A program made the translations under genes and the position numbers. This document shows positions 3,098 to 54,606 of a stretch of DNA of 64,000 nt, piece after piece; the first letter of the stretch is position 1; each line of letters begins with the position of its first letter. Source of the DNA: a bacterium (GTDB lineage: Bacteria; CG2-30-53-67; CG2-30-70-394). The notes under the pieces were generated by a model. It saw nothing but the letters and a program-made list of their open reading frames with translations, did not search any database and was not told the DNA's origin. The stretch lies in contig DASWHD010000135.1 of assembly GCA_036393335.1 (NCBI GenBank), forward strand, positions 14,405-78,404, read 5' to 3'.

Positions 3098-4686
3098 GCG
3101 CCGTCCGGCGGTCTACCGGCCGCCTCGTACGGCGCCAGAGATCCGCATACCACCTGAGCGTGGTGGTGACCCGGGGTCGGGGCCTGATTGCCGAGCTGGA
3201 GATCGGCGCCCGCGGCCCACGGCCGGTACGGGCGGTGCCCTTCCTCTTCGCCAAGGACGACTGGCAATCGCTCCGCGCGGCGCTGCACGACGCGGTCCGC
3301 GGTGGCGGCTGGCGTGCCCGGCAGGTCTCCTTCGCCCTCGGTGGCGATGGCGTGCGCCACGGCGTGGTGGAGGTGCCGTTGTTGCCCGACAGTAAGTTGG
3401 ACCGCCTCTTGACCCACGAGGCGGCGGCATTGGCCGGGGCCACGGAGGAGGCGGCGCCCATCACCGGCTACACGTGGGGCTACCACCGCTATCCGTCCGC
3501 AGGGGGCGCGCAACAGGTGTTGCTCGCCCTCGCCGACCGGCAATTGGTTGACGCAGCGGTCGCCGCCGTGGTCGACGCGGGCCTCATGCCGGCGCGCGCT
3601 ACGACCATCGAGATCGCCGGCCTGCAACGCCTCCTGCGAGACGATGTGTTTGCCGAGAGCGGTCTGGTGGCACACGTGGCCGTCGACGACGAGGAGACAT
3701 CGTTCACCGTCTTCGACGGGGAGCGCCTGGTTTTCAACCGCGCCCTCCTGCGCGGTTTCCGACCCATGGGGGGAGCGAGCGGCACGGTGGGGCCGGAGGA
3801 GAGGGCGGCCCTGGAACGACTGGCGCTGGAGCTGCAGCGCACCACCCTGTACATCAAGCGGGAGATGCGCCGTCCCGTGGAGTTGATGGTCATCGGCGGC
3901 ATCCCGCGCGCGGCCCAGGCGGCACGGGAGGTGATCGCGGAGCACCTGCGGCTGCCGCTCGCGTGGGAGAGCCTGCCGCCGGAAGGCATGCAGGCGGAAG
4001 CCGCCGCCGAAGTGCTCTACCTGGCGGCCGTCGGCGCCGCCCTCTCGGGGAGGTCCATCGTCGCCATCGATCTGCTCCCACACCGCTCCTTCGACGAACG
4101 CCACCCATGGGTCGGCTGGGAGGCGGTCGCGGCCGGGGTGGCGCTCTGGGTTGGCGCCGGGGCATGGGTTGGTGGGGAGCTTGCGGCGCTTCGGGGTCAG
4201 ACCACGGTGGCGGCGGCGCGGCTTGCCGGGCTGCAGGAGCGTTACCAACCGACGTCGCGGGTGATCGACGGGGCGTATCGTGAATTGCAGGACCGTCGCG
4301 CGGAGATCGACCGCTACCTGCGGGCCGCCGGACCCAGCCACGCTCCCCTAACCCCCACCGCGGCGATGGCGATTCTCGGCGCCGGATTGCCGGGTGACGT
4401 GGTGCTCCTCGACTGCCTGCTGGAACGGGTTGGCCAGGCGTGGTGGTGCACCCTGCGCGGGGCACTGGTGGTCGCCAGTCGTGCCGCCGCCGAACGGAGC
4501 TACCAGAATCTCCTCACCCACCTGGAACGCTCTCCCTACGTCACCTTGGAGATAACCGGGCGGGAGCGCGTGCCGCCCACCTCCGGGCGTGCCGGCAAGG
4601 TTAATCTGGCCCGGGACGTCGATGGCGGCTCCATCTACCCCTTCGAGATCACTTGCCATCTGGCGGTGCCGGGAGAGGGGCGATGA
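3094..4686 (+). CDS. GspL-like protein: a fusion of PilM-like (actin-like, cytoplasmic), a TM helix and a PilN-like periplasmic domain
   Basis: ATGA overlap with gspF. The N-terminal ~340 aa resemble PilM/GspL-cyto. A single TM segment (WEAVAAGVALWVGAGAWVGG) is followed by a periplasmic domain. The real start is the internal Met of the 696-aa ORF. Confidence 0.65.
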   Translation: MSAVRRSTGRLVRRQRSAYHLSVVVTRGRGLIAELEIGARGPRPVRAVPFLFAKDDWQSLRAALHDAVRGGGWRARQVSFALGGDGVRHGVVEVPLLPDSKLDRLLTHEAAALAGATEEAAPITGYTWGYHRYPSAGGAQQVLLALADRQLVDAAVAAVVDAGLMPARATTIEIAGLQRLLRDDVFAESGLVAHVAVDDEETSFTVFDGERLVFNRALLRGFRPMGGASGTVGPEERAALERLALELQRTTLYIKREMRRPVELMVIGGIPRAAQAAREVIAEHLRLPLAWESLPPEGMQAEAAAEVLYLAAVGAALSGRSIVAIDLLPHRSFDERHPWVGWEAVAAGVALWVGAGAWVGGELAALRGQTTVAAARLAGLQERYQPTSRVIDGAYRELQDRRAEIDRYLRAAGPSHAPLTPTAAMAILGAGLPGDVVLLDCLLERVGQAWWCTLRGALVVASRAAAERSYQNLLTHLERSPYVTLEITGRERVPPTSGRAGKVNLARDVDGGSIYPFEITCHLAVPGEGR

Positions 4687-46227: not shown

Positions 46228-46336
46228 AGTAGACAACAGTAGGTAGTAGACAGTAGACAGTAGACAGCAGGGCTCGACTCCGGGCCTGAGGCCGGCTCCC
46301 CTCTGTCTACTGTCTACTCCCTACTGTCTACTCTCC
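46228..46336. repeat. Long imperfect hairpin built from tandem GTAGACA heptamers
   Basis: The 5' arm AGTAGACAACAGTAGGTAGTAGACAGTAGACAGTAGACAG is mirrored by the 3' arm CTGTCTACTGTCTACTCCCTACTGTCTACT around a GC-rich loop. It ends 4 nt before the ATG at 46341. Confidence 0.6.
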
Positions 46337-46340
46337 CCTC

Positions 46341-47282
46341 ATGCCCTTTCCCCAGATCGACCTCGCCAAGGGCAAGACCCGTCCCTTGGCGGAGCGGCCG
46401 AACAAGGTCAACACCGGCCACTTCGCGGCGCCGGTCACAGGCGTCCCGGACATCGCCGCCTTCATCGACGGCCTGCCCAAAATCCTCGCGGCCGATGACC
46501 TGCGCTCCCTGATCGACGCCATCGTCACGGCCCGGCAGCGCGGGCGCCCAGTAGTCCTGGCCATGGGCGCCCACGTCCTTAAGACCGGTCTCACTCCGCT
46601 GTTGCTCCACGCCCTTGACCGGGGGGTCGTCACGGCATTCGCCTTGAACTCCGCCGGCTCTATCCACGACCTGGAGATCGCCCTGATCGGCGCGACCTCC
46701 GAGGACGTGGCGGTGGGGATCGAGGATGGCTCGTTCGGCATGTGGCAGGAGACCGGCGCATGGATCCACCGCGCGGTCCAGGCCGGATTACAGGACGGCC
46801 TCGGCTATGGCGAGGCCGTGGGACGGGCGATCCTGCGCGATGCACCCCACCCTGAGTATTCGTTGCTCGCCCGCTGCGCCGAGCGCCAGGTCCCCGCCAC
46901 GGTCCACGTAGCGATTGGTACCGACATCGTCCACATGCACCCGGAGATGAACGGCGCCACCCTCGGCGAGGCGAGCTTCGTCGACTTCAAGATCATCAGC
47001 CGGGTGGTGGCCGACCTGGAGGGCGGCGGGGTGTGGATCAACTGCGGCAGCTCGGTGATCCTGCCGGAGGTGTTCCTCAAGGCGGTGACCCTCTGTCGCA
47101 ACCAGGGCTACCCGGTAGCCGACATCGTCACCGCTAACCTCGACATGATCCGCCACTACCGTCCCCACGAAAACGTGCTCGCCCGTCCCACCAGCCGCGG
47201 CGGTCGCTCCTACCAGCTCATCGGCCACCACGAGATCATGGTGCCCCTGTTACTGCACGGCTGCTTCGCGCGACTCGTCTGA
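46341..47282 (+). CDS. Conserved hypothetical protein, possibly deoxyhypusine-synthase-like (DS family) fold
   Basis: Weak pattern resemblance to DHS (...AMGAHVLKTGLTPLLLHALDRGVVTAFALNSAGSIHDLEIAL...). Not confident. Confidence 0.35.
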   Translation: MPFPQIDLAKGKTRPLAERPNKVNTGHFAAPVTGVPDIAAFIDGLPKILAADDLRSLIDAIVTARQRGRPVVLAMGAHVLKTGLTPLLLHALDRGVVTAFALNSAGSIHDLEIALIGATSEDVAVGIEDGSFGMWQETGAWIHRAVQAGLQDGLGYGEAVGRAILRDAPHPEYSLLARCAERQVPATVHVAIGTDIVHMHPEMNGATLGEASFVDFKIISRVVADLEGGGVWINCGSSVILPEVFLKAVTLCRNQGYPVADIVTANLDMIRHYRPHENVLARPTSRGGRSYQLIGHHEIMVPLLLHGCFARLV

Positions 47283-47333: not shown

Positions 47334-50300
47334 ATGAGCCTCATCACCACCTCCGTGGAGCGCCAGGTCTCGGTCACCGTCGGGGTGGCGCTGGTGGTGC
47401 TATTCGGGGTGATCTCCCTGGTGCGTACCCCAGTGCAGCTCACCCCCGAGGTGTCGCGGCCGGAGATCACGGTGGAGACCGTGTGGATCGGTGCCAGCCC
47501 CGAGGAGGTGGAGACGGAGATCGTCCAGCGCCAGGAGGACCAGCTCAAGAGCGTCGAGGGCGTGGTGGAGATGAAGTCCGAGTCCCAGGACAGCCTGGGA
47601 CGGGTGGTCCTCACCTTCGAGCCCGGCACGGACATGGACGCCGCCCTGCTCAAGGCGAGCAACCGCCTCAATCAGGTGAAGGACATCCCGCTGGACGCCG
47701 ACCGCCCGGTCCTGTCTACGGTGAACACCGGCGACCAGGCGATCGCCTGGTTCATCCTCAAGCCTAAGCCGGGCAACACGCGGCCGATCTACACCTATCA
47801 GGAATTCACGGAGGACAACGTCAAGGCGCGCTTCGAGCGCGTGCCGGGGGTGGCCCGGAGCAACGTCCTCGGCGGGCGGGAGCGGGAGCTCCAGGTGGTG
47901 GTGGACCCGGCCAAGCTCGCCGCGTACGGCATCACCCTCGGCGAGCTGATCCACTCCCTCGACGCCGAGAACGTCAACATCTCCGCAGGCAGCTTCGACG
48001 AGGGCAAACGGCGCTACGTGGTGCGTACGGTGGCGGAGCTGGTGGCCCCGGAGGAGGTGGAGAAGATCGCCCTCAAGACCGCCTCCGGCGAGCGCATCTT
48101 CGTGCGCGACGTGGCTACCGCCCGCTTCGGCTACAAGACGCAGACCATCGCGGTGCGCCAGAACGGCGAGCCGGCGATGGCGGTCAACGCCCTGCGCGAG
48201 TCGGGGTCGAACGTCCTGGAGGTGATGGCCGGCCTGAAGGCCGCGTTGCAGGAGCTGAACGACGGCGTGGTCGGCGCCGAGGGGCTCTACCTCACCCAGG
48301 TCTACGACGAGACCGAGTACATCACCTCGGCCATCGACCTGGTGCAGCAGAACCTGTGGGTCGGCGGGACGCTCGCGGTGCTGGTGCTGCTGCTCTTCCT
48401 GCGCACCCTTTCGCCCACGGTGATCATTGCCACGACGATCCCCATCTCGGTGGTCGGGACCTTCATCGTCATGCGCCTGATGGGCCGCACCATCAACGTC
48501 GTCTCCCTTGCGGGCCTGGCGTTCGCCGTCGGCATGGTGGTGGACAACGCGATCGTCGTGCTGGAGAACATCTTTCGCCACCTGCAGATGGGCAAGGGGC
48601 GCAGGCAGGCGGCCATCGATGGCGCCCGGGAGGTGTGGGGGGCGGTGCTCTCCTCCACCCTGACCACCATCGCGGTCTTCCTGCCGATCCTGTTCATCGT
48701 CGAGGAAGCGGGCCAGCTCTTCCGCGACATCGCCATCGCGATCTGCGGGGCGGTGGGGCTGTCGCTGCTGGTCTCCGTGTCTGTGATCCCGTCGTTCGCC
48801 GCCCGGGTCCTGGGTGATGCGACGCTCGCGGCCGAGGCGCAGCACGGCCGGAACCTGCGCGGGCTGTTCGGCCTGGTGGCGCTGGCGGAGCGGTTCACCG
48901 ACTGGCTCGCCGAGCTTGCCTACCGCATCAGCCGCAGCCTCGTGCTCAAGCTGCTGGTGATCGCCGGCCTGACGGGTGCGTCGCTTGCCGCCGCCTGGTT
49001 TCTCGCACCCAAGCCCGAGTACCTGCCCACCGGCAACCGCAACCTGATCATCGGTCTCCTCCTGCCGCCGCCGGGCTACAACGTGGAGGAGTTCAATCGC
49101 ATCGGCGGGGAGCTGGAGGCACAGCTAGCCCCGCTGTGGGAGCGGGAGAGCACCGGGCCCGACGAACCGCCGGCGATCAAGAACTTCTTCTACGTGGCCC
49201 GCGGCCGGCAGATCTTCATGGGGGTGAGGGCCAGGGACTCGCGGCGCATCCGCGAGCTGATCCCGTACATGCAGCAGCGCCTGGCGCAGGTGCCGGGGAT
49301 GATCGCCGTCGTCACCCAGACCTCGCTCTTCGATCGCTCGCTCTCCGGCGGCCGCACCATCAGCGTAGAATTCTCGGGCGACGACATTACGCGCCTGGTG
49401 GCGGTGGGCGGACGCGCCTTCGGGGCGATTACCCAGGCGATCCCGGGCGCGCAGATCCGGCCGGTGCCGAGCCTCGACCTCGCCAATCCGGAGATCCGTG
49501 TCCTCCCGGATCGCGTGCGGCTCGCCGATCTCGGCCTCACGGCCCACGAGCTGGGGATCGCCGTCGACGCCCTGCTGGACGGCACCAAGGCGAGCACGGT
49601 GAACGTCGGTGGCAACGAGCTGGACCTGACGGTGATGGGCGGGGAGGAATTTGCCAGCCGCACCCAGGACTTCGCGGGCCTCCTGATCCGCGCGCCGGGG
49701 GGCCAGACCCTGCCCCTCGGCGCCCTGGCGCAGGTCCGTCTCATGGCGGGACCGGAACAGATCAACCACTCGGAGCGCCAGCGCACCATCAGCCTCGACG
49801 TGCGTCCCCCGGAGGAGACCCCTTTGGAGGCGGCGATGGAGACGATCCTGGAGAAGGTGATCGCTCCCATGGAGACGGAAGGGGTGGTGGGCAAGGACGT
49901 ACGGGTGCGGCTGGCCGGCACCGCCGACAAGCTGCGCACCACCTTCAACGTCCTGCAATGGAACTTTCTCCTCGCCCTGGCGATCACCTACCTGCTGATG
50001 GCCGCCCTGTTCGAGAGCTTCTTCTATCCCCTGGTGATCATGTTCTCCGTCCCCATGGCGATGGCGGGCGGCTTCCTCGGCCTATGGCTGGTGAACGTCT
50101 TCATCGCCTACCAGGCCCTGGATGTGCTTACCATGCTCGGCTTCATCATTCTGGTGGGGACGGTGGTCAACAACGCGATCCTGATCGTCCACCAGGCGCT
50201 CAACTTCATGCGCGACGCCGGCATGGAGAGCCACGCGGCCCTGCGCGAGTCGGTGCGTACCCGCGTGCGTCCGATCTCCATGTCGGTGGGTACGTCGGTC

Positions 50301-50495
50301 TTCGGTATGCTGCCGCTGGTGCTCTTCCCCGGCGCGGGGAGCGAACTCTACCGCGGACTGGGGTCCGTGGTCGTCGGCGGCCTCGCCCTCTCCGCCGCCT
50401 TCACCCTGCTGCTCGTCCCCGCCATGTTCAGCCTCGCCATCGACGTGCGCCACGCCCTCACCGGCCGCGCCGCCAAGGGCACCAAGCCGGAGTAG
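47334..50495 (+). CDS. RND efflux transporter permease (AcrB/HAE1 family)
   Basis: 1053 aa; 12 TM segments with two large periplasmic loops; conserved TM4 region (GLAFAVGMVVDNAIVVLENIFRH). Confidence 0.9.
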   Translation: MSLITTSVERQVSVTVGVALVVLFGVISLVRTPVQLTPEVSRPEITVETVWIGASPEEVETEIVQRQEDQLKSVEGVVEMKSESQDSLGRVVLTFEPGTDMDAALLKASNRLNQVKDIPLDADRPVLSTVNTGDQAIAWFILKPKPGNTRPIYTYQEFTEDNVKARFERVPGVARSNVLGGRERELQVVVDPAKLAAYGITLGELIHSLDAENVNISAGSFDEGKRRYVVRTVAELVAPEEVEKIALKTASGERIFVRDVATARFGYKTQTIAVRQNGEPAMAVNALRESGSNVLEVMAGLKAALQELNDGVVGAEGLYLTQVYDETEYITSAIDLVQQNLWVGGTLAVLVLLLFLRTLSPTVIIATTIPISVVGTFIVMRLMGRTINVVSLAGLAFAVGMVVDNAIVVLENIFRHLQMGKGRRQAAIDGAREVWGAVLSSTLTTIAVFLPILFIVEEAGQLFRDIAIAICGAVGLSLLVSVSVIPSFAARVLGDATLAAEAQHGRNLRGLFGLVALAERFTDWLAELAYRISRSLVLKLLVIAGLTGASLAAAWFLAPKPEYLPTGNRNLIIGLLLPPPGYNVEEFNRIGGELEAQLAPLWERESTGPDEPPAIKNFFYVARGRQIFMGVRARDSRRIRELIPYMQQRLAQVPGMIAVVTQTSLFDRSLSGGRTISVEFSGDDITRLVAVGGRAFGAITQAIPGAQIRPVPSLDLANPEIRVLPDRVRLADLGLTAHELGIAVDALLDGTKASTVNVGGNELDLTVMGGEEFASRTQDFAGLLIRAPGGQTLPLGALAQVRLMAGPEQINHSERQRTISLDVRPPEETPLEAAMETILEKVIAPMETEGVVGKDVRVRLAGTADKLRTTFNVLQWNFLLALAITYLLMAALFESFFYPLVIMFSVPMAMAGGFLGLWLVNVFIAYQALDVLTMLGFIILVGTVVNNAILIVHQALNFMRDAGMESHAALRESVRTRVRPISMSVGTSVFGMLPLVLFPGAGSELYRGLGSVVVGGLALSAAFTLLLVPAMFSLAIDVRHALTGRAAKGTKPE

Positions 50496-50575
50496 CCCAT
50501 CCCACAGGAAACCGCTGTGCCGCCCCCTCTGCGCCTGCGCGCGAGAACCTTCAAGACTCCGTAGAAGGAAGCAGG

Positions 50576-50647
50576 GTGGTTGCTGTAGGCGGATCCTATC
50601 TGCGTTCATTCGCGTCCATACGCGGCTCAACCCGATTCGCACGGTGG
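50576..50647. repeat. ~65-70 nt conserved motif U (direct repeat partner at 52231-52299)
   Basis: GTTGCTG...GCGTCCATACGCGGCTCAACCC...ACGGTGG versus GTTGCTG...GCGTCCACGCGCGGATCAACCC...ACGGTGG. Confidence 0.45.
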
Positions 50648-50856
50648 TTGACGCTTCCCCCTTTCGCCTGCGTGTTTTGGCGCCATTGAGTCAAGCAGTT
50701 GCCGGCTCACCCGTGCTGGTCCTCCCGGCGTGCGGCCGGTTCCGGTACGATGGGTCCCCGGGTGTGGCGATGATGCGTTCGATCCTACTGGCTGGGGCGG
50801 GTGCTGTGATCGTGGTGGGCATCGTTCGTGCGACGGAATGACGAGGAGCGGGGACC

Positions 50857-52128
50857 ATGAGCCTGATTCCGTATACCCTGGTGACCGTCTTCCTGCGCGA
50901 GGGGCGGGACAACCCCCGCGACCTGGTGGAGAAGGTCCGCCGCCTCGGTCTCTGCGCCCGCTGCCTGGTCACCCCGGCGAGTGAGGGGTGCTTCGAGAAC
51001 GGGGAGGTGGCGACCACCAAGATCCTCGTCCTCTCCACCGCGCTCCCCAAAAAGGTGGAGATCATCGTGCCGGAGGCCGACACCCAGGCGGTCCTCGACC
51101 TCCTCGACCGCGAGGTGGTCGACGGCATCGTCACGGTGGCGCCGGCGCCGGTGGTCGTGCACCGCACCGCCAAGCGGCTGATTCCCAACCACCTGCAGGT
51201 GCGCCACGTGATGAACCCGTCGGTCACCGTGGCGACGCCGGAGCTGGGTCTGGATGAGGCCGCCCGCCGTCTCGTGGCCGGCGGCCTCGTTGCCCTGCCG
51301 GTGGTCGACGAGGGGCGGCGGGTGGTGGGGGTGCTCAGCCAGCGCGATCTCTTCCAGCAGGGCTACCTGTCATTGCGTGCCGGGCTGTTCGCGATCCTCA
51401 ACGAGGAGGATGCCCGGGAGGTCCTTGCGCCCCTCTCCGGCAAGTGGGCACGGGACGTCATGACCACGCCGGCGGACACGGTACGTGACGATACCTACCT
51501 TCCGGATGCGGTGCGGTTGCTGGAAGAGACGGGGCACAAGCGCCTGCCCGCGGTGGATGAGGAGGGGCGCCTCACCGGCCTCTTCGCCCGCCTCGACATC
51601 CTCAAGGCGATCACCCACCACACCCCCGGGTGGTACGCCAAGGGTGCGGAGCACGTCGACCTGATGCGGGCGCGGACCGTCGCCGACGCCATGCGCCCAC
51701 GCCCGGAGGCGGTGCGCACCGATGGTTCCTTGAGCGACCTCCTGGAACTCTTCCTCGCGACCGGCCGCTGCTGTGTCCCGGTCCTGGACAACGGGGACCA
51801 CTTCCTGGGCCTGGTCTTCGACCGCACCCTGGTGGGCCATCTTGCCGGCCACGGCCGCGGCCTCTGGGAGCTCGTCACCGGCAAGGTCTCCCTCCATGGC
51901 CTCGCCACCCGCCACCGCAGCCTGGCGGAGGCACTTCAGCAGACCAGCGCCGAGGCGCTCCTGGACCGGCAGGTGACGACCATCCGCCCCGAGGCCCCCA
52001 TCGAGGAGGCGGTGCGCCTCATCGCAGCGACCGGCTACCGCTATCTGCCGGTGGTCGATGGCGATGGCCGGCTGGTGGGGTTGGTGGGCCGCACCGACCT
52101 CCTCACCGCCGAGGTGGCTGGCGGGTGA
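50857..52128 (+). CDS. DUF190 (PII-like) plus tandem CBS-domain protein
   Basis: N-terminal MSLIPYTLVTVFLREG...KILVLSTALPKKVEIIVPEA (PII-like/DUF190 pattern), then four CBS motifs (e.g. GLVALPVVDEGRRVVGVLSQRDL; YRYLPVVDGDGRLVGLVGRTDL). Confidence 0.7.
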   Translation: MSLIPYTLVTVFLREGRDNPRDLVEKVRRLGLCARCLVTPASEGCFENGEVATTKILVLSTALPKKVEIIVPEADTQAVLDLLDREVVDGIVTVAPAPVVVHRTAKRLIPNHLQVRHVMNPSVTVATPELGLDEAARRLVAGGLVALPVVDEGRRVVGVLSQRDLFQQGYLSLRAGLFAILNEEDAREVLAPLSGKWARDVMTTPADTVRDDTYLPDAVRLLEETGHKRLPAVDEEGRLTGLFARLDILKAITHHTPGWYAKGAEHVDLMRARTVADAMRPRPEAVRTDGSLSDLLELFLATGRCCVPVLDNGDHFLGLVFDRTLVGHLAGHGRGLWELVTGKVSLHGLATRHRSLAEALQQTSAEALLDRQVTTIRPEAPIEEAVRLIAATGYRYLPVVDGDGRLVGLVGRTDLLTAEVAGG

Positions 52129-52230
52129 CGGCGGGCCAGGGGAGGCCGGCAGGTCCGTGCATCGGTACGCCATCGGCACGATCCCCGGCGCGAAGTGCTG
52201 GTGGAACACACCGCGGAAGGCCGCGGTATG

Positions 52231-52299
52231 GTCGTTGCTGGCGGAGTCGACTCGCGTGCCTTTGCGTCCACGCGCGGATCAACCCCTCTCCTACGGTGG
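52231..52299. repeat. ~65-70 nt conserved motif D (partner of 50576-50647)
   Basis: See motif U; located between the convergent CBS and PAP2 genes. Confidence 0.45.
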
Positions 52300-52337
52300 C
52301 GGCTGGAAGCGCCGCATTGCCCGCTGCCTCTCCGCGG

Positions 52338-53138
52338 TCAGTGCGGCCGGCGGAAAAGGAGGGGGCGGGAGCGTTGGTAGGCGGTGAGGCAGGAGGCGAC
52401 GCCGATCATCAGGAGGGGCCAGCGCCAGCTATCCGGGACCATCTTGGTCTTGAACGCCTGCCAGGTGAGGAGCAGGCCGATCAAGAACAGGAGGAGGGCG
52501 TGGAGGATGTGGCCGCGGGGTTGGCTGCGGTGCAGGCGCAGGCGTGACCACAAGCGATCGAGCACCGGCCGGGCGGCGTCTACGGCGAGGCCGATAGCAC
52601 TGCCCAGCAGGCAGCCGGCTACCATGTCGATGGGAAAGTGGACGCCATTGTAGACGCGGCTGAAGGCCACGAGGCCGGCCAGGGCTAACAACGGTACTGC
52701 GACGGCGGGAAATCTCTTCGCGAGCACCCACGCCACCGCCACCGCCGTGGTGGTGTGTCCCGAGGGGAAGGAAAAGTTCCTCAGGTAGGGGCCGAGAACC
52801 CGTAGCCCCTCGACCAGGGCGGGTGGCCGTGGGTGTGCGAAGAGGTGCTTGAACAGGGCGACCGTGACGGCGGTGAGGGCCAGGGTGACCAGGGCGTCGC
52901 CGACGAATGGGCGCCGCACGACAAGCGCCGCCCAGAGGAGCAGGGTGAGGATCAGGGCGGCGTCGCCCAGGAGGGTGAGGTGGAGGAAGATGGCATCGAG
53001 CCACGTCACTCGCAGGTGGCGCTGGACGAAGAGCAAGACCGCCCGGTCGATGGCCAGGACCGGCGCGGTGGTGGCCATGGATCCGAGGGCAACCAGAGCC
53101 GCCACTAGCAAGGTGATGACGAGGACTCGCCCCTTCAT
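52338..53138 (-). CDS. PAP2-family phosphatase (BcrC/PgpB-like, candidate undecaprenyl-diphosphate phosphatase)
   Basis: The three PAP2 motifs are present: KHLFAHPRP, PSGHT, SRVYNGVHFPIDMVAG; 6 TM helices. Start at the internal MKGRVLV. Confidence 0.8.
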   Translation of the reverse strand: MKGRVLVITLLVAALVALGSMATTAPVLAIDRAVLLFVQRHLRVTWLDAIFLHLTLLGDAALILTLLLWAALVVRRPFVGDALVTLALTAVTVALFKHLFAHPRPPALVEGLRVLGPYLRNFSFPSGHTTTAVAVAWVLAKRFPAVAVPLLALAGLVAFSRVYNGVHFPIDMVAGCLLGSAIGLAVDAARPVLDRLWSRLRLHRSQPRGHILHALLLFLIGLLLTWQAFKTKMVPDSWRWPLLMIGVASCLTAYQRSRPLLFRRPH

Positions 53139-53283
53139 GTGGTCTCCACGGGCGAGGGCAGTAAGCGCGGGAAAGCCGGTCTCAACCGACCAGCAGGCGT
53201 GGTGGGCGAACGGTGTCCCTCGGGCTGTAGCCTGTATTATGAAGGGGGGCTTCAGCGACAGGCGCGGTGCGGGTGCCGCGCGC

Positions 53284-54606
53284 CTACTTGCCCCCCTCCA
53301 TGCCGCACGGTCGGCCAATGCTGCGATACTTGAAGCCGATCTCGGTGACCCGTTTGGGGTGGTATACGTTGCGCAGGTCGATGAAGGTTGGGGTGCGCAT
53401 GCTGCTCTTGAGCCGCTCCAGGTCGAGATTGCGGAACACATTCCACTCGGTCGCCAGCACCAGACAGTCGCTGCCCTCGGCTGCATCGTACGCGTCGTTG
53501 CAATAGACGATGTTCGACAGCTCGGCCTTGGACGTTTCCATCGCCGCCGGATCGTAGGCGCGCACTGTCACCCCGGCCTGTTGCAGGCCGCGGACGATCA
53601 CCAGGGTAGGGGATTCGCGCATGTCGTCGGTGTTGGGCTTGAAGGCGAGGCCGAGCAACGCGACGGTCTTGCCCTGGGGCTCTCCCAGCTCCTCCAGCAC
53701 CAAGTCGAGGGCGCGTTGTTTCTGCCGCTCGTTGACCTCGACCACGCTCTCCACGATCTGAAAACGATAGTCGTGGTCGCGAGCGATGCGGGTCAGGGCG
53801 AGGGTGTCCTTGGGGAAGCACGAGCCGCCATAGCCGGGGCCCGGATGGAGAAACTTCGCGCCGATGCGGCCGTCCAGTCCCATGCCTTTGGCCACGTCCT
53901 GGACATTGGCTCCCACCCGATCGCAGAGGTTGGCGCACTCGTTGATGAAGCTGATCTTGGTGGCGAGGAAGGCGTTCGCCGCGTATTTGATGAACTCGGC
54001 AGTCTCCAGATTGGTGATTACCATCGGCGTCTCGATGAGATAGAGCGGACGATAGAGGTCCTTGAGGATCGCCACCGCGTGCTCGTCGTCGGCGCCGAGG
54101 ATGACCCGGTTGGGACGCATGAAATCTTCGATGGCGCTGCCCTCACGGAGGAACTCCGGGTTGGAGGCGACGTCGAAGCGGTGACGACCCTGGAGGACCT
54201 CCTCCATGATCTTCTGCACGCGCCGCGCCGTGCCCACGGGCACGGTCGACTTGTTGACGATCACCTTGTAACCGTCCATCACCTCGGCGACTTGGCGGGC
54301 GACCGCCTCGACGTATTGCAGGTCGGCGGAACCGTCCTCACCGGGTGGGGTGCCGACGGCAACGAAGATCACCAGCGAGCTGTGGACGCCTTCCGCGAGG
54401 TCGGTGGTGAAGTGGAGCCGGCCTTCCGCCACGTTCTTGGCCACCAGGCGGTCGAGGCCCGGCTCGTAGATCGGGATCTCGCCGCGCTTCAGGGCCGCGA
54501 TCTTGGCCACGTTGTTGTCCACGCAGGTGACATGGACGCCGAACTCGGCAAAACAGGTTCCGGTTACCAGACCGACGTAACCGCTTCCGATCACACAGAT
54601 ATTCAT
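53284..54606 (-). CDS. ugd: UDP-glucose 6-dehydrogenase
   Basis: MNICVIGSGYVGLVTG... (NAD Rossmann), catalytic GGSCFPKD; 440 aa. Confidence 0.9.
   Translation of the reverse strand: MNICVIGSGYVGLVTGTCFAEFGVHVTCVDNNVAKIAALKRGEIPIYEPGLDRLVAKNVAEGRLHFTTDLAEGVHSSLVIFVAVGTPPGEDGSADLQYVEAVARQVAEVMDGYKVIVNKSTVPVGTARRVQKIMEEVLQGRHRFDVASNPEFLREGSAIEDFMRPNRVILGADDEHAVAILKDLYRPLYLIETPMVITNLETAEFIKYAANAFLATKISFINECANLCDRVGANVQDVAKGMGLDGRIGAKFLHPGPGYGGSCFPKDTLALTRIARDHDYRFQIVESVVEVNERQKQRALDLVLEELGEPQGKTVALLGLAFKPNTDDMRESPTLVIVRGLQQAGVTVRAYDPAAMETSKAELSNIVYCNDAYDAAEGSDCLVLATEWNVFRNLDLERLKSSMRTPTFIDLRNVYHPKRVTEIGFKYRSIGRPCGMEGGK

What the first reader, a model, noticed from the sequence alone, without database searches (positions are those of the whole stretch)
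50576..52299. Conserved ~65-nt direct repeats flank the DUF190-CBS gene and a tiny upstream membrane peptide
The two motifs (50576-50647 and 52231-52299) share a distinctive core (GTTGCTG...GCGTCCA(T/C)(A/G)CGCGG(C/A)TCAACCC...ACGGTGG). They bracket a 65-codon upstream ORF (ending in the hydrophobic peptide MMRSILLAGAGAVIVVGIVRATE) and the PII-like/CBS-domain protein. The core contains a short stem (CGCGT...ACGCG). The motif could be a cis-regulatory RNA leader duplicated at the 3' end, or the footprint or att-like ends of a small inserted cassette. PII-like plus CBS proteins are typical ligand-sensing regulators, which makes a riboswitch-type control plausible but unproven.
Basis: seen in the sequence. 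Interest (0 to 1): 0.5.

Follow-up and report, generated by a model that had tools for sequence, protein, structure and literature searches.

The report
Conserved intergenic repeat, not a riboswitch
The two repeats are real copies of a roughly 96-base non-coding element belonging to a rearrangement-prone gap between two core genes of an uncultured (probably Nitrospirota) bacterium; close relatives carry the same CBS gene without the repeats, so they neither control that gene nor mark its ends.

Summary
There are two direct copies (50553-50650 and 52205-52300, + strand), 65/96 identical, nhmmer E 2e-7 to 2e-9, and no third copy in the 64 kb.

The interpretation mostly fails.
- No Rfam family matches, no fold beats shuffles, and no pair covaries.
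- Relatives carry crcB-DUF190/CBS without the motif.
- One relative (L039/L041) has the motif but no crcB, CBS or AcrB gene.

Copy 1 and both its flanks are orthologous to that relative's 313-aa-gene/PAP2 spacer, so copy 1 is the resident copy. The crcB-CBS pair lies to its right and a solitary AcrB-type gene to its left. Copy 2 sits on a ~165-nt insertion found only in the window's haplotype. A fourth copy lies in an unrelated metagenome contig (L015).

The "tiny membrane peptide" is what remains of crcB after a 338-nt frameshifting deletion.

A 22-nt core containing CGCGT-N4-ACGCG is identical between copy 1 and the copy in the distant relative. I read the element as a low-copy dispersed intergenic repeat acting at the DNA level, as a probable protein-binding and recombination anchor site. 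Its function is unproven. Interest is modest.

The parts
50553..50650 (+). Repeat copy 1 (M1), the resident copy of the element
   Evidence: Matches copy 2 by nhmmer. Identical in 9 further contigs of this haplotype and in L037, and differs by 1 base in L002. Orthologous to the copy in L039/L041.
52205..52300 (+). Repeat copy 2 (M2), a diverged paralogue
   Evidence: 65/96 identical to copy 1, E 2e-7 to 2e-9. Absent from L001, L002, L003 and L032/33, which have only 38-39 nt between the CBS stop and the PAP2 stop.
50608..50629 (+). 22-nt invariant core ATTCGCGTCCATACGCGGCTCA, containing the palindrome CGCGT-N4-ACGCG (50611-50624)
   Evidence: Identical in L039/L041, although the flanking genes are only 78-86% identical. 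L015 shares the overlapping 22-mer 50612-50633.
52260..52281 (+). Core of copy 2 (CTTTGCGTCCACGCGCGGATCA), with degenerate palindrome half-sites
50524..50718 (+). Ancestral spacer block S1: copy 1 with about 30 nt on its left and about 70 nt on its right
   Evidence: Aligns to the 313aa/PAP2 spacer of L039/L041 at E 1e-10 to 6e-10. The right flank alone gives z = 5.5 and runs through the PAP2 stop of L039.
52137..52304 (+). Insertion of about 165 nt (boundaries +/- 8 nt) specific to the window haplotype: about 72 nt of unknown origin followed by copy 2
   Evidence: Window 52140-52294 has no counterpart in L001/L002/L003. The whole L002 spacer aligns to the sequence right of the insertion. Present in 9 contigs from 9 samples.
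   Evidence: L002 and L001 have an intact 125-aa CrcB here. 338 nt are missing in the window and the frame shifts.
50719..50769 (+). Segment conserved directly upstream of crcB in all crcB-bearing relatives (contains TACGAT); possibly the operon promoter
   Evidence: Alignment. No consensus promoter was called by the scan, so the promoter role is an inference.
50857..52128 (+). DUF190 (PII-like) plus 4xCBS protein gene
   Evidence: Pfam PF02641 and PF00571 x4. Only 18 homologues at E<=1e-20, and the close ones all follow crcB.
47334..50495 (+). Solitary AcrB-type RND permease gene, extra DNA relative to L003, L032/33 and L039
   Evidence: Pfam. The 313-aa gene is followed directly by crcB or PAP2 in relatives. 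Orthologues at 85% and 77% identity have an adaptor gene upstream and no motif downstream.
52338..53138 (-). PAP2 phosphatase gene, right anchor of the variable locus
   Evidence: Pfam; gene calls.
46341..47282 (+). 313-aa gene, left anchor of the variable locus
   Evidence: Syntenic in L003, L032/33 and L039/L041.

Best explanation
The repeats are two members of a small family of ~96-nt non-coding DNA elements ('M'). M belongs to the variable spacer between a conserved 313-aa gene and a PAP2 gene in a clade of uncultured, probably Nitrospirota, bacteria.

Shown:
- Copy 1 is the resident copy. Together with both its flanks it is orthologous to the spacer of a relative that has no AcrB, crcB or CBS gene.
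- The crcB-DUF190/CBS pair lies to the right of that spacer block, at the PAP2 stop. A partner-less AcrB gene lies to its left.
- Copy 2 is an older, diverged paralogue (68% identity). It arrived on a ~165-nt insertion between the CBS and PAP2 stops in the window's haplotype only.
- A further copy sits in an unrelated context (L015).

Inferred: M acts as DNA, not as a leader RNA. Its invariant 22-nt core with the palindrome CGCGT-N4-ACGCG, preceded by 10-11-nt tandem sub-repeats (GCGTYCATNN), is most simply a protein-binding site. Because the core stays identical between diverged lineages, it also serves as the homology anchor where recombination exchanges the neighbouring genes. M gets copied to new intergenic sites in the manner of REP- or MITE-type repeats.
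For: (1) Reality: 2 copies against 0.02 expected; E 2e-7 to 2e-9.

(2) The layout is not an assembly artefact: the same arrangement occurs on 9 contigs from 9 samples.

(3) Copy 1 is resident. The spacer of L039/L041 (313aa -> 297 nt <- PAP2, no AcrB/crcB/CBS) aligns to window 50527-50706 at E = 6e-10, with a 22-nt identical core. The right-flank homology has z = 5.5.

(4) M is not tied to the operon. L003, L032/33, L004/5 and L034 have crcB-CBS or its remnants without M.

(5) Copy 2 is on an insertion. There are 38-39-nt spacers in L001/2, L003 and L032/33 against 209 nt in the window.

(6) The family is dispersed. L015 matches at 33/36 in the core, plus flank features of both copies, and scores 60 bits against the 4-member profile it helped build, in a different gene context.

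(7) M is non-coding. Differences fall 9/9/8 over the three codon positions (my count on the alignment). A six-frame peptide search found nothing.

(8) Recombination anchor. Window against L002 divergence is 3/293 left of the motif's right edge and 15/143 right of it, p = 1e-5. The diverged block runs to about 52400 and then falls back to 1-4%. L003 homology to the window begins at 50651.

(9) No integrase or transposase was found in the 30 window ORFs scanned against Pfam or in the gene tables for the rest.
Against: - Only four family members are known, so copy number per genome is unknown. There are 2 copies in 64 kb and none in about 100 kb of related loci apart from the orthologous site.
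- There are no terminal inverted repeats and no clean target-site duplication. The short ACGG(Y)GG repeats at the junctions are imperfect and were noticed post hoc.
- The 72 nt left of copy 2 are unexplained.
- The binding protein is hypothetical.
- The step in divergence at the motif edge needs nothing more than ordinary homologous recombination in a conserved patch.
- Core identity could partly reflect gene conversion rather than function.
Confidence: 0.5

Rival explanations
1. att-type direct repeats. crcB-CBS entered as a cassette by recombination within M, either site-specific or Campbell-type. That would leave one M on each side (attL and attR), with L039 representing the empty site.
For: The empty site has one M (L039/L041), while the window has two direct Ms around crcB-CBS. 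Next to copy 1's right flank there is a stretch homologous to the L039 spacer through its PAP2 stop. Short ACGG-type repeats occur at the junctions.
Against: - Copy 1 is contiguous with ancestral sequence on both sides, so the insert junction is near 50718, not in M.
- Copy 2's flanks are unrelated to the ancestral flanks (z 0-1).
- L001/2 carry the operon with copy 1 only, and L003 and L032/33 carry it with neither copy.
- The copies are only 68% identical.
- No recombinase gene lies between the copies, and none was found in the ORFs scanned in the rest of the window.
Confidence: 0.12
2. An RNA-level 3' element read from the minus strand. In this reading, the reverse complement of M is a 3'-UTR, terminator or small-RNA module downstream of PAP2 (and of vapC in L015).
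For: The reverse complement of M lies 39-76 nt after the stop of a minus-strand gene in three contexts. These are PAP2 in the window via copy 2, PAP2 in L039, and vapC in L015. Copy 1 had the same position before crcB-CBS intervened. The minus strand of copy 2 ends in a 10-bp GC hairpin with a CCUU loop.
Against: - Minus-strand folds are no better than shuffles (z -0.15 and -0.10; z -0.27).
- The consensus of four copies keeps only a 4-bp hairpin with no compensatory change.
- No terminator-like or promoter-like site was found.
- The hairpin of copy 2 is not shared by copy 1.
- L001/2, L003 and L032/33 have PAP2 without M.
Confidence: 0.15
3. Functionless relic. M is simply old spacer sequence, copy 2 is a stray fragment imported by illegitimate recombination, and the core identity is chance or gene conversion.
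For: Very low copy number. No structure, no coding signal and no associated enzyme were found. The locus is visibly rearrangement-prone.
Against: A 22/22 identical core sits inside flanks that are much more diverged, and the flanking genes are only 78-86% identical. The same core occurs in an unrelated contig (L015).
Confidence: 0.15
4. A cis-regulatory leader RNA or riboswitch controlling crcB and the DUF190-CBS gene.
For: Copy 1 lies about 120 nt upstream of the crcB start in L002. crcB operons are classic riboswitch targets (established knowledge of the fluoride riboswitch, Rfam RF01734).
Against: - No Rfam hit even at E<=10.
- z-scores are near 0 or positive, and the covariation term is -0.32.
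- M is absent upstream of crcB in L003, L032/33, L004/5 and L034, which instead share a different conserved ~55 nt next to the start codon.
- M is present in L039, which has no crcB or CBS gene.
- Copy 2 precedes no gene.
Confidence: 0.03

Closest known systems
REP/BIME-type and MITE-type dispersed intergenic repeats
   Same: Short (~100 nt) and non-coding. Confined to intergenic DNA, mostly between convergent genes. Shows presence/absence polymorphism between close strains. Copies occur in unrelated contexts. In copy 1 a GTAG tetranucleotide is followed by a small hairpin, as in REPs. M also serves as a crossover point.
   Different: Only 2 copies in 64 kb. No terminal inverted repeats, no clear target duplication, no REPIN-style inverted pairs, and the element is not palindromic overall. 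No RAYT or transposase is known for it.
Integron attC sites (3' recombination sites of gene cassettes)
   Same: Sits 3' of a co-oriented gene in all contexts. Copies are of attC-like length and divergence. The L015 copy lies one ORF away from a canonical attC-like hairpin. GCTCAAC fits the RYYYAAC box.
   Different: Not an imperfect palindrome. No properly spaced GTTRRRY partner: it is 17 nt away in copy 1 and absent in copy 2. No integrase or attI was found in the parts of the window examined.
attL/attR repeats of integrative elements that target conserved genes
   Same: One copy in an 'empty' relative and two direct copies around extra genes in the window.
   Different: The flanks show that copy 1 is not at the insert junction. 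There is no integrase. Relatives keep the genes without the second copy, or without either copy.
Fluoride riboswitch (crcB motif, Rfam RF01734)
   Same: Copy 1 lies upstream of a crcB-type operon in L002.
   Different: No sequence or structure match. M is not conserved with crcB, and it occurs where there is no crcB.

Membership tests
Riboswitch / cis-regulatory leader (including fluoride riboswitch RF01734) | Match to a curated covariance model | tested here: not met
   No hit at gathering score in the window. Nothing over the motif at E<=10. Nothing in the related loci at E<=1.
Riboswitch / cis-regulatory leader (including fluoride riboswitch RF01734) | Conserved position upstream of the regulated gene in relatives | tested here: not met
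   Absent upstream of crcB in L003, L032/33, L004/5 and L034. Present in L039, which has no crcB or CBS gene.
Riboswitch / cis-regulatory leader (including fluoride riboswitch RF01734) | Structure supported by stability and covariation | tested here: not met
   z = 0.07 and 1.63. Covariation term -0.32. The 5-bp hairpin has 0 compensatory pairs and is not distinguishable from shuffles. Only 3-4 distinct sequences were available, so power is low.
Integron attC | R'' (RYYYAAC) and R' (GTTRRRY) boxes 50-140 nt apart, flanking an imperfect palindrome | tested here: not met
   GCTCAAC and GTTGACG are only 17 nt apart in copy 1, and copy 2 has no GTT box. No local inverted repeat. Folds are no better than shuffles.
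Integron attC | Location in a cassette array next to intI/attI | tested here: not met
   No integrase in the 30 window ORFs scanned against Pfam or in the gene tables for the rest. Only L015 has a neighbouring canonical attC-like hairpin (z -4.7).
MITE | Terminal inverted repeats | tested here: not met
   By inspection, the ends of M, of the 165-nt insertion and of the AcrB segment show no inverted repeat. The repeat finder reported none.
MITE | Target-site duplication | tested here: inconclusive
   There are imperfect short repeats: ACGGCGG.../ACGGTGG... around the 165-nt insertion, and ACGGTAT.../ACGGTGG... around the AcrB-to-M1 segment. They are 4-7 nt long and the boundaries are uncertain by +/- 8 nt.
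MITE | Insertion polymorphism between close relatives | tested here: met
   Copy 2 with its 165-nt segment is present in the window haplotype and absent in L001/2, L003 and L032/33.
REP / REPIN | High copy number and inverted pairs | tested here: not met
   Two direct copies in 64 kb and none elsewhere in the sequence held. The whole genome was not available.
REP / REPIN | 5' GTAG/GTGG followed by a palindrome, plus a cognate RAYT gene | tested here: inconclusive
   Copy 1 has GTAG followed by GCGGAU-CCU-AUCUGC. L015 has GTGG. Copy 2 has GCTG. A RAYT gene is not testable without the genome.
attL/attR of an integrated element | Repeats sit exactly at the junctions between resident and inserted DNA | tested here: not met
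   Copy 1 is flanked on both sides by sequence orthologous to the L039 spacer.
attL/attR of an integrated element | The DNA between the repeats is absent wherever the second repeat is absent | tested here: not met
   L001/2, L003 and L032/33 keep the CBS gene with one copy or none.
Diversity-generating retroelement TR/VR pair | One repeat at the 3' end of a target gene, adenine-specific differences, and a reverse transcriptase nearby | tested here: not met
   Both copies are intergenic. Differences involve all bases. No RT was found in the ORFs scanned or in the gene tables.

The most novel reading that the evidence does not exclude
M is the cis-acting 3' site of an undescribed, non-integron gene-cassette system. 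In this reading each unit is 'payload plus M', joined at a short ACGG(Y)GG core. The units would be AcrB+M1, crcB-CBS (or just 72 nt)+M2, and the small AT-rich ORF+M in L015 beside a canonical attC. A recombinase encoded elsewhere would build the variable 313aa/PAP2 locus by adding such units.
Probability: 0.07. Interest if true: 0.75.

Novelty: new member of a known kind. Interest (0 to 1): 0.27.

Why it matters
It removes a false riboswitch lead. The fluoride-channel operon here has no structured leader that could be detected, and the 'membrane peptide' is a crcB wreck.

It also documents a compact recombination hotspot between two core genes in an uncultured lineage. The conserved 22-nt palindromic core there is a concrete candidate binding site, testable once the genome or a culture is available.

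If the cassette reading were right, it would be a new way of assembling gene arrays. The present evidence makes that unlikely.

Tried and rejected
- Rfam: searched at gathering and at permissive thresholds on the window and on 9 related loci; nothing at the motif.
- Folding: single-sequence folds of both strands and of the whole 165-nt insertion gave z between -0.8 and +1.6. Consensus folds of both strands showed no covariation.
- Genome collection scan with the core pattern: 7 hits, all with unrelated flanks, about the number expected by chance.
- Metagenome scan: 8 hits, of which only L015 is related. L016 lies inside a coding region. That collection does not contain the samples carrying this strain, so the family is under-sampled.
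- Viral scan: 2 chance hits in a coding sequence.
- Plasmid BLAST of both copies: nothing meaningful.
- Six-frame peptides of the three copies known at that point, searched against 5.8 billion proteins: no hit at E<=10. M is therefore not a fragment of a detectable gene.
- AcrB association: M is not associated with AcrB orthologues (L035, L036, L038).
- Rejected by inspection: integron attC, Tn7-like end (TGTGGGCGG occurs in L015 only), tRNA-like 3' fragment, DGR, sigma-54 and ECF promoters, and Chi (GCTGGTGG occurs 17 times in the window).
- The DUF190 literature search returned only DUF1908-type hits.
Full report
**1. The observation**

The two motifs are in the sequence as described. The degenerate core GCGTCCAYRCGCGGMTCAACCC, allowing 3 mismatches, occurs exactly twice in 64 kb, against 0.02 expected.

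It runs from 50553-50650 to 52205-52300, ungapped, with 65/96 identical bases. nhmmer with either copy as query recovers the other at E = 1.9e-7 and 1.9e-9, and everything else scores E >= 1. The repeat finder missed the pair because the copies share no exact 9-mer.

The repeats bracket a DUF190 plus four-CBS protein gene (50857-52128) and the ORF 50644-50841.

**2. The neighbourhood, and what the 'tiny peptide' is**

Only 18 proteins in the 5.8-billion set resemble the DUF190-CBS protein at E<=1e-20. On contigs of the close relatives, a crcB fluoride-channel gene (PF02537) sits directly upstream of it. This is seen in L001, L002, L003 and L034.

Mapping the window onto L002 shows that 338 nt of crcB are missing at window 50785-50789, at a CTACT microhomology. 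The remnant reads MMRSILL and then runs out of frame through the old stop codon. No gene is called there on any of nine contigs.

crcB has been lost at least three separate times in this clade:
- the deletion in the window;
- a different deletion junction in L032/33;
- a frameshifted pseudogene in L004/5.

The window's layout is not an assembly artefact. The exact CBS protein lies on nine contigs from nine samples, all with the same arrangement.

The organism is an uncultured bacterium. NCBI labels the proteins 'MAG TPA [bacterium]', and the 90% cluster of one of the two window proteins found there (the UDP-glucose dehydrogenase) includes a Nitrospirota MAG protein. The rest of the window is core chromosome: type II/IV secretion, flagellar genes, folate enzymes, BamA/LpxD/FabZ/LpxA, Dxr and Nuo. 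No integrase or transposase was found in the 30 ORFs scanned against Pfam or in the gene tables for the rest.

**3. Is it a structured RNA?**

- No Rfam family reaches its gathering score anywhere in the window.
- Nothing overlaps the motif even at E<=10.
- Nine related loci are also negative, including for the fluoride riboswitch.
- Single-sequence folds are no better than shuffles on either strand (z = 0.07, 1.63, -0.15, -0.10). The same holds for the whole insertion.
- The consensus fold has a covariation term of -0.32.
- The one hairpin common to all copies (CGCGU-CCAY-RCGCG) shows only one-sided changes and is indistinguishable from shuffled controls. The minus strand keeps just 4 pairs.
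- The differences between the copies fall 9/9/8 over the three codon positions (my count on the alignment). A six-frame peptide search found nothing. The element is therefore not coding either.
- No promoter-like or terminator-like site was scored.

**4. Comparative evidence**

The locus between a 313-aa gene and a PAP2 gene exists in at least six states:

| Locus | Arrangement |
|---|---|
| L039/L041 | 313aa -> 297-nt spacer <- PAP2, nothing else |
| L003 | 313aa, crcB, CBS, PAP2 |
| L032/33 | 313aa, deleted crcB, CBS, PAP2 |
| L004/5 | 5'-nucleotidase, pseudo-crcB, CBS, PAP2 |
| L002 | AcrB, copy 1, crcB, CBS, PAP2 |
| Window | 313aa, AcrB, copy 1, crcB remnant, CBS, ~165-nt insertion with copy 2, PAP2 |

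The motif is absent from the states carrying crcB and CBS in L003, L032/33, L004/5 and L034. Those relatives share instead a different conserved stretch of about 55 nt next to the crcB start.

The decisive locus is L039/L041, which has no crcB, CBS or AcrB gene.
- Its spacer aligns to window 50527-50706 at E = 6e-10.
- It shares a 22-nt stretch, ATTCGCGTCCATACGCGGCTCA, identical to window 50608-50629. The flanking genes are only 78-86% identical.
- The homology covers both flanks of copy 1. On the right it runs through the position of the L039 PAP2 stop (z = 5.5).

Copy 1 is therefore the resident, orthologous copy of an old spacer element. The crcB-CBS pair lies to its right and AcrB to its left.

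That AcrB gene has no adaptor gene beside it. Its 85% and 77% orthologues do have one, and they have no motif downstream.

**5. Copy 2**

In L001/2, L003 and L032/33 the CBS stop and the PAP2 stop are 38-39 nt apart. In the window they are 209 nt apart. The whole L002 spacer aligns to the sequence on the right of a ~165-nt extra segment.

That segment consists of about 72 nt of unknown origin followed by copy 2. Its flanks are unrelated to the ancestral flanks (z 0-1).

At 68% identity, the two copies are more diverged from each other than the flanking genes of the window and L039 are (78-86%). Copy 2 is therefore not a recent local duplicate of copy 1. The segment is seen only in the window haplotype, so a gain is more parsimonious than three or more losses. 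This is an inference.

**6. A fourth member**

Exact-pattern scans of the genome, metagenome and viral collections gave chance-level hits with unrelated flanks. The one exception is L015. It matches 33/36 around the core and shares flank features of both copies. It scores 60 bits against the four-member profile it helped build.

In L015 the element lies between a small AT-rich ORF and a convergent vapBC pair, near a transposase fragment. One ORF away there is a canonical attC-like hairpin (z = -4.7).

The four-member profile finds no further copy in the window or in any other locus held.

**7. Recombination at the element**

Window and L002 differ at 3/293 positions up to the right edge of copy 1, and at 15/143 positions beyond it (p = 1e-5). 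The diverged block (8.5-17%) extends to about 52400, inside the PAP2 3' end. After that, divergence falls to 1-4% apart from a local spike near 53100-53300. L003's homology to the window also starts at 50651.

The simplest reading is homologous exchange of the crcB-CBS allele, with one crossover in the conserved element. Short imperfect ACGG(Y)GG repeats lie at the junctions of the 165-nt segment and of the AcrB-to-copy-1 segment, and in the empty sites. These are suggestive but were noticed post hoc.

**8. Conclusion**

The 'cassette ends' idea fails the flank test, although the locus is indeed a hotspot and copy 2 does ride on an insertion.

My best account (confidence 0.5) is a low-copy, dispersed, non-coding DNA element. 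Its invariant palindromic core is probably a protein-binding site, and it doubles as a recombination anchor.

The rivals are:
- a minus-strand 3' RNA element, since the reverse complement lies 39-76 nt after PAP2 or vapC stops in three contexts;
- a functionless relic;
- att repeats;
- a leader RNA.

The most novel reading not excluded is a non-integron cassette site (probability about 0.07).

**9. Limits**

Only four family members could be found. The public collections that could be scanned by pattern do not contain this strain. The genome itself was not available, and all mechanistic steps beyond the comparative anatomy are inferences.

Noticed in passing
window 50770-50841; L032 ~290-345; L004 ~3650-3950: The fluoride channel gene crcB has been destroyed independently at least three times in this clade: a 338-nt deletion in the window, a different deletion in L032/33, and a frameshifted pseudogene in L004/5. 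The adjacent DUF190-4xCBS gene is always kept intact.
   Followed up: partly
window 46228-46333: A near-perfect hairpin of about 105 nt, built from heptamer repeats (GTAGACA)n / (TGTCTAC)n, lies in the spacer before the 313-aa gene. Its MFE is -58.7 kcal/mol with z = -6.2. L003 has unrelated (GCTGACC)n repeats at the same place.
   Followed up: partly
window 47334-50495: An AcrB-type RND permease gene stands alone, without the usual membrane-fusion partner. It is extra DNA relative to three related lineages. Its closest orthologues (85% and 77%) have the partner gene directly upstream.
   Followed up: partly
window 50647 to about 52400, compared with L001/L002: A block of about 1.75 kb covering the crcB region, the CBS gene and the last codons of PAP2 is 8.5-17% diverged between two strains. 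Outside it, the same strains differ by only 1-4%, apart from a local spike near 53100-53300. This is a recombined allele.
   Followed up: yes
window 50719-50769 and the equivalent stretch in L002, L003, L004/5, L032/33: About 55 nt directly upstream of crcB (CCTCCCGGC..GCGGCCGGTTCCGCTACGATGGG) are conserved in all crcB-bearing relatives. This may be the operon's real promoter or leader. It matches no Rfam family.
   Followed up: partly
L015 minus strand, about 1945-1870: A canonical integron attC-like site (GTCTAAC ... GTTAAAC, hairpin z = -4.7) precedes a small AT-rich membrane-protein ORF in an otherwise GC-rich contig. The contig also carries vapBC and a Mutator-type transposase fragment.
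   Followed up: partly
L038 2330-2790; L035 9170-9260 and 5860-5930; L034 1-130: Other intergenic repeat families, (A/C)TTCAACGCAAAGGCGC units and CACGAAGG/GTCTTCC arrays, fill the flanks of related AcrB and crcB genes in relatives. They are not enriched in the window: the 8-mer CACGAAGG occurs only 3 times in 64 kb and the longer units do not occur at all.
   Followed up: no
window 50857-52128: The DUF190 (PII-like) plus four-CBS architecture is rare. Only 18 proteins were found at E<=1e-20 among 5.8 billion, mostly from metagenomes of one clade.
   Followed up: no
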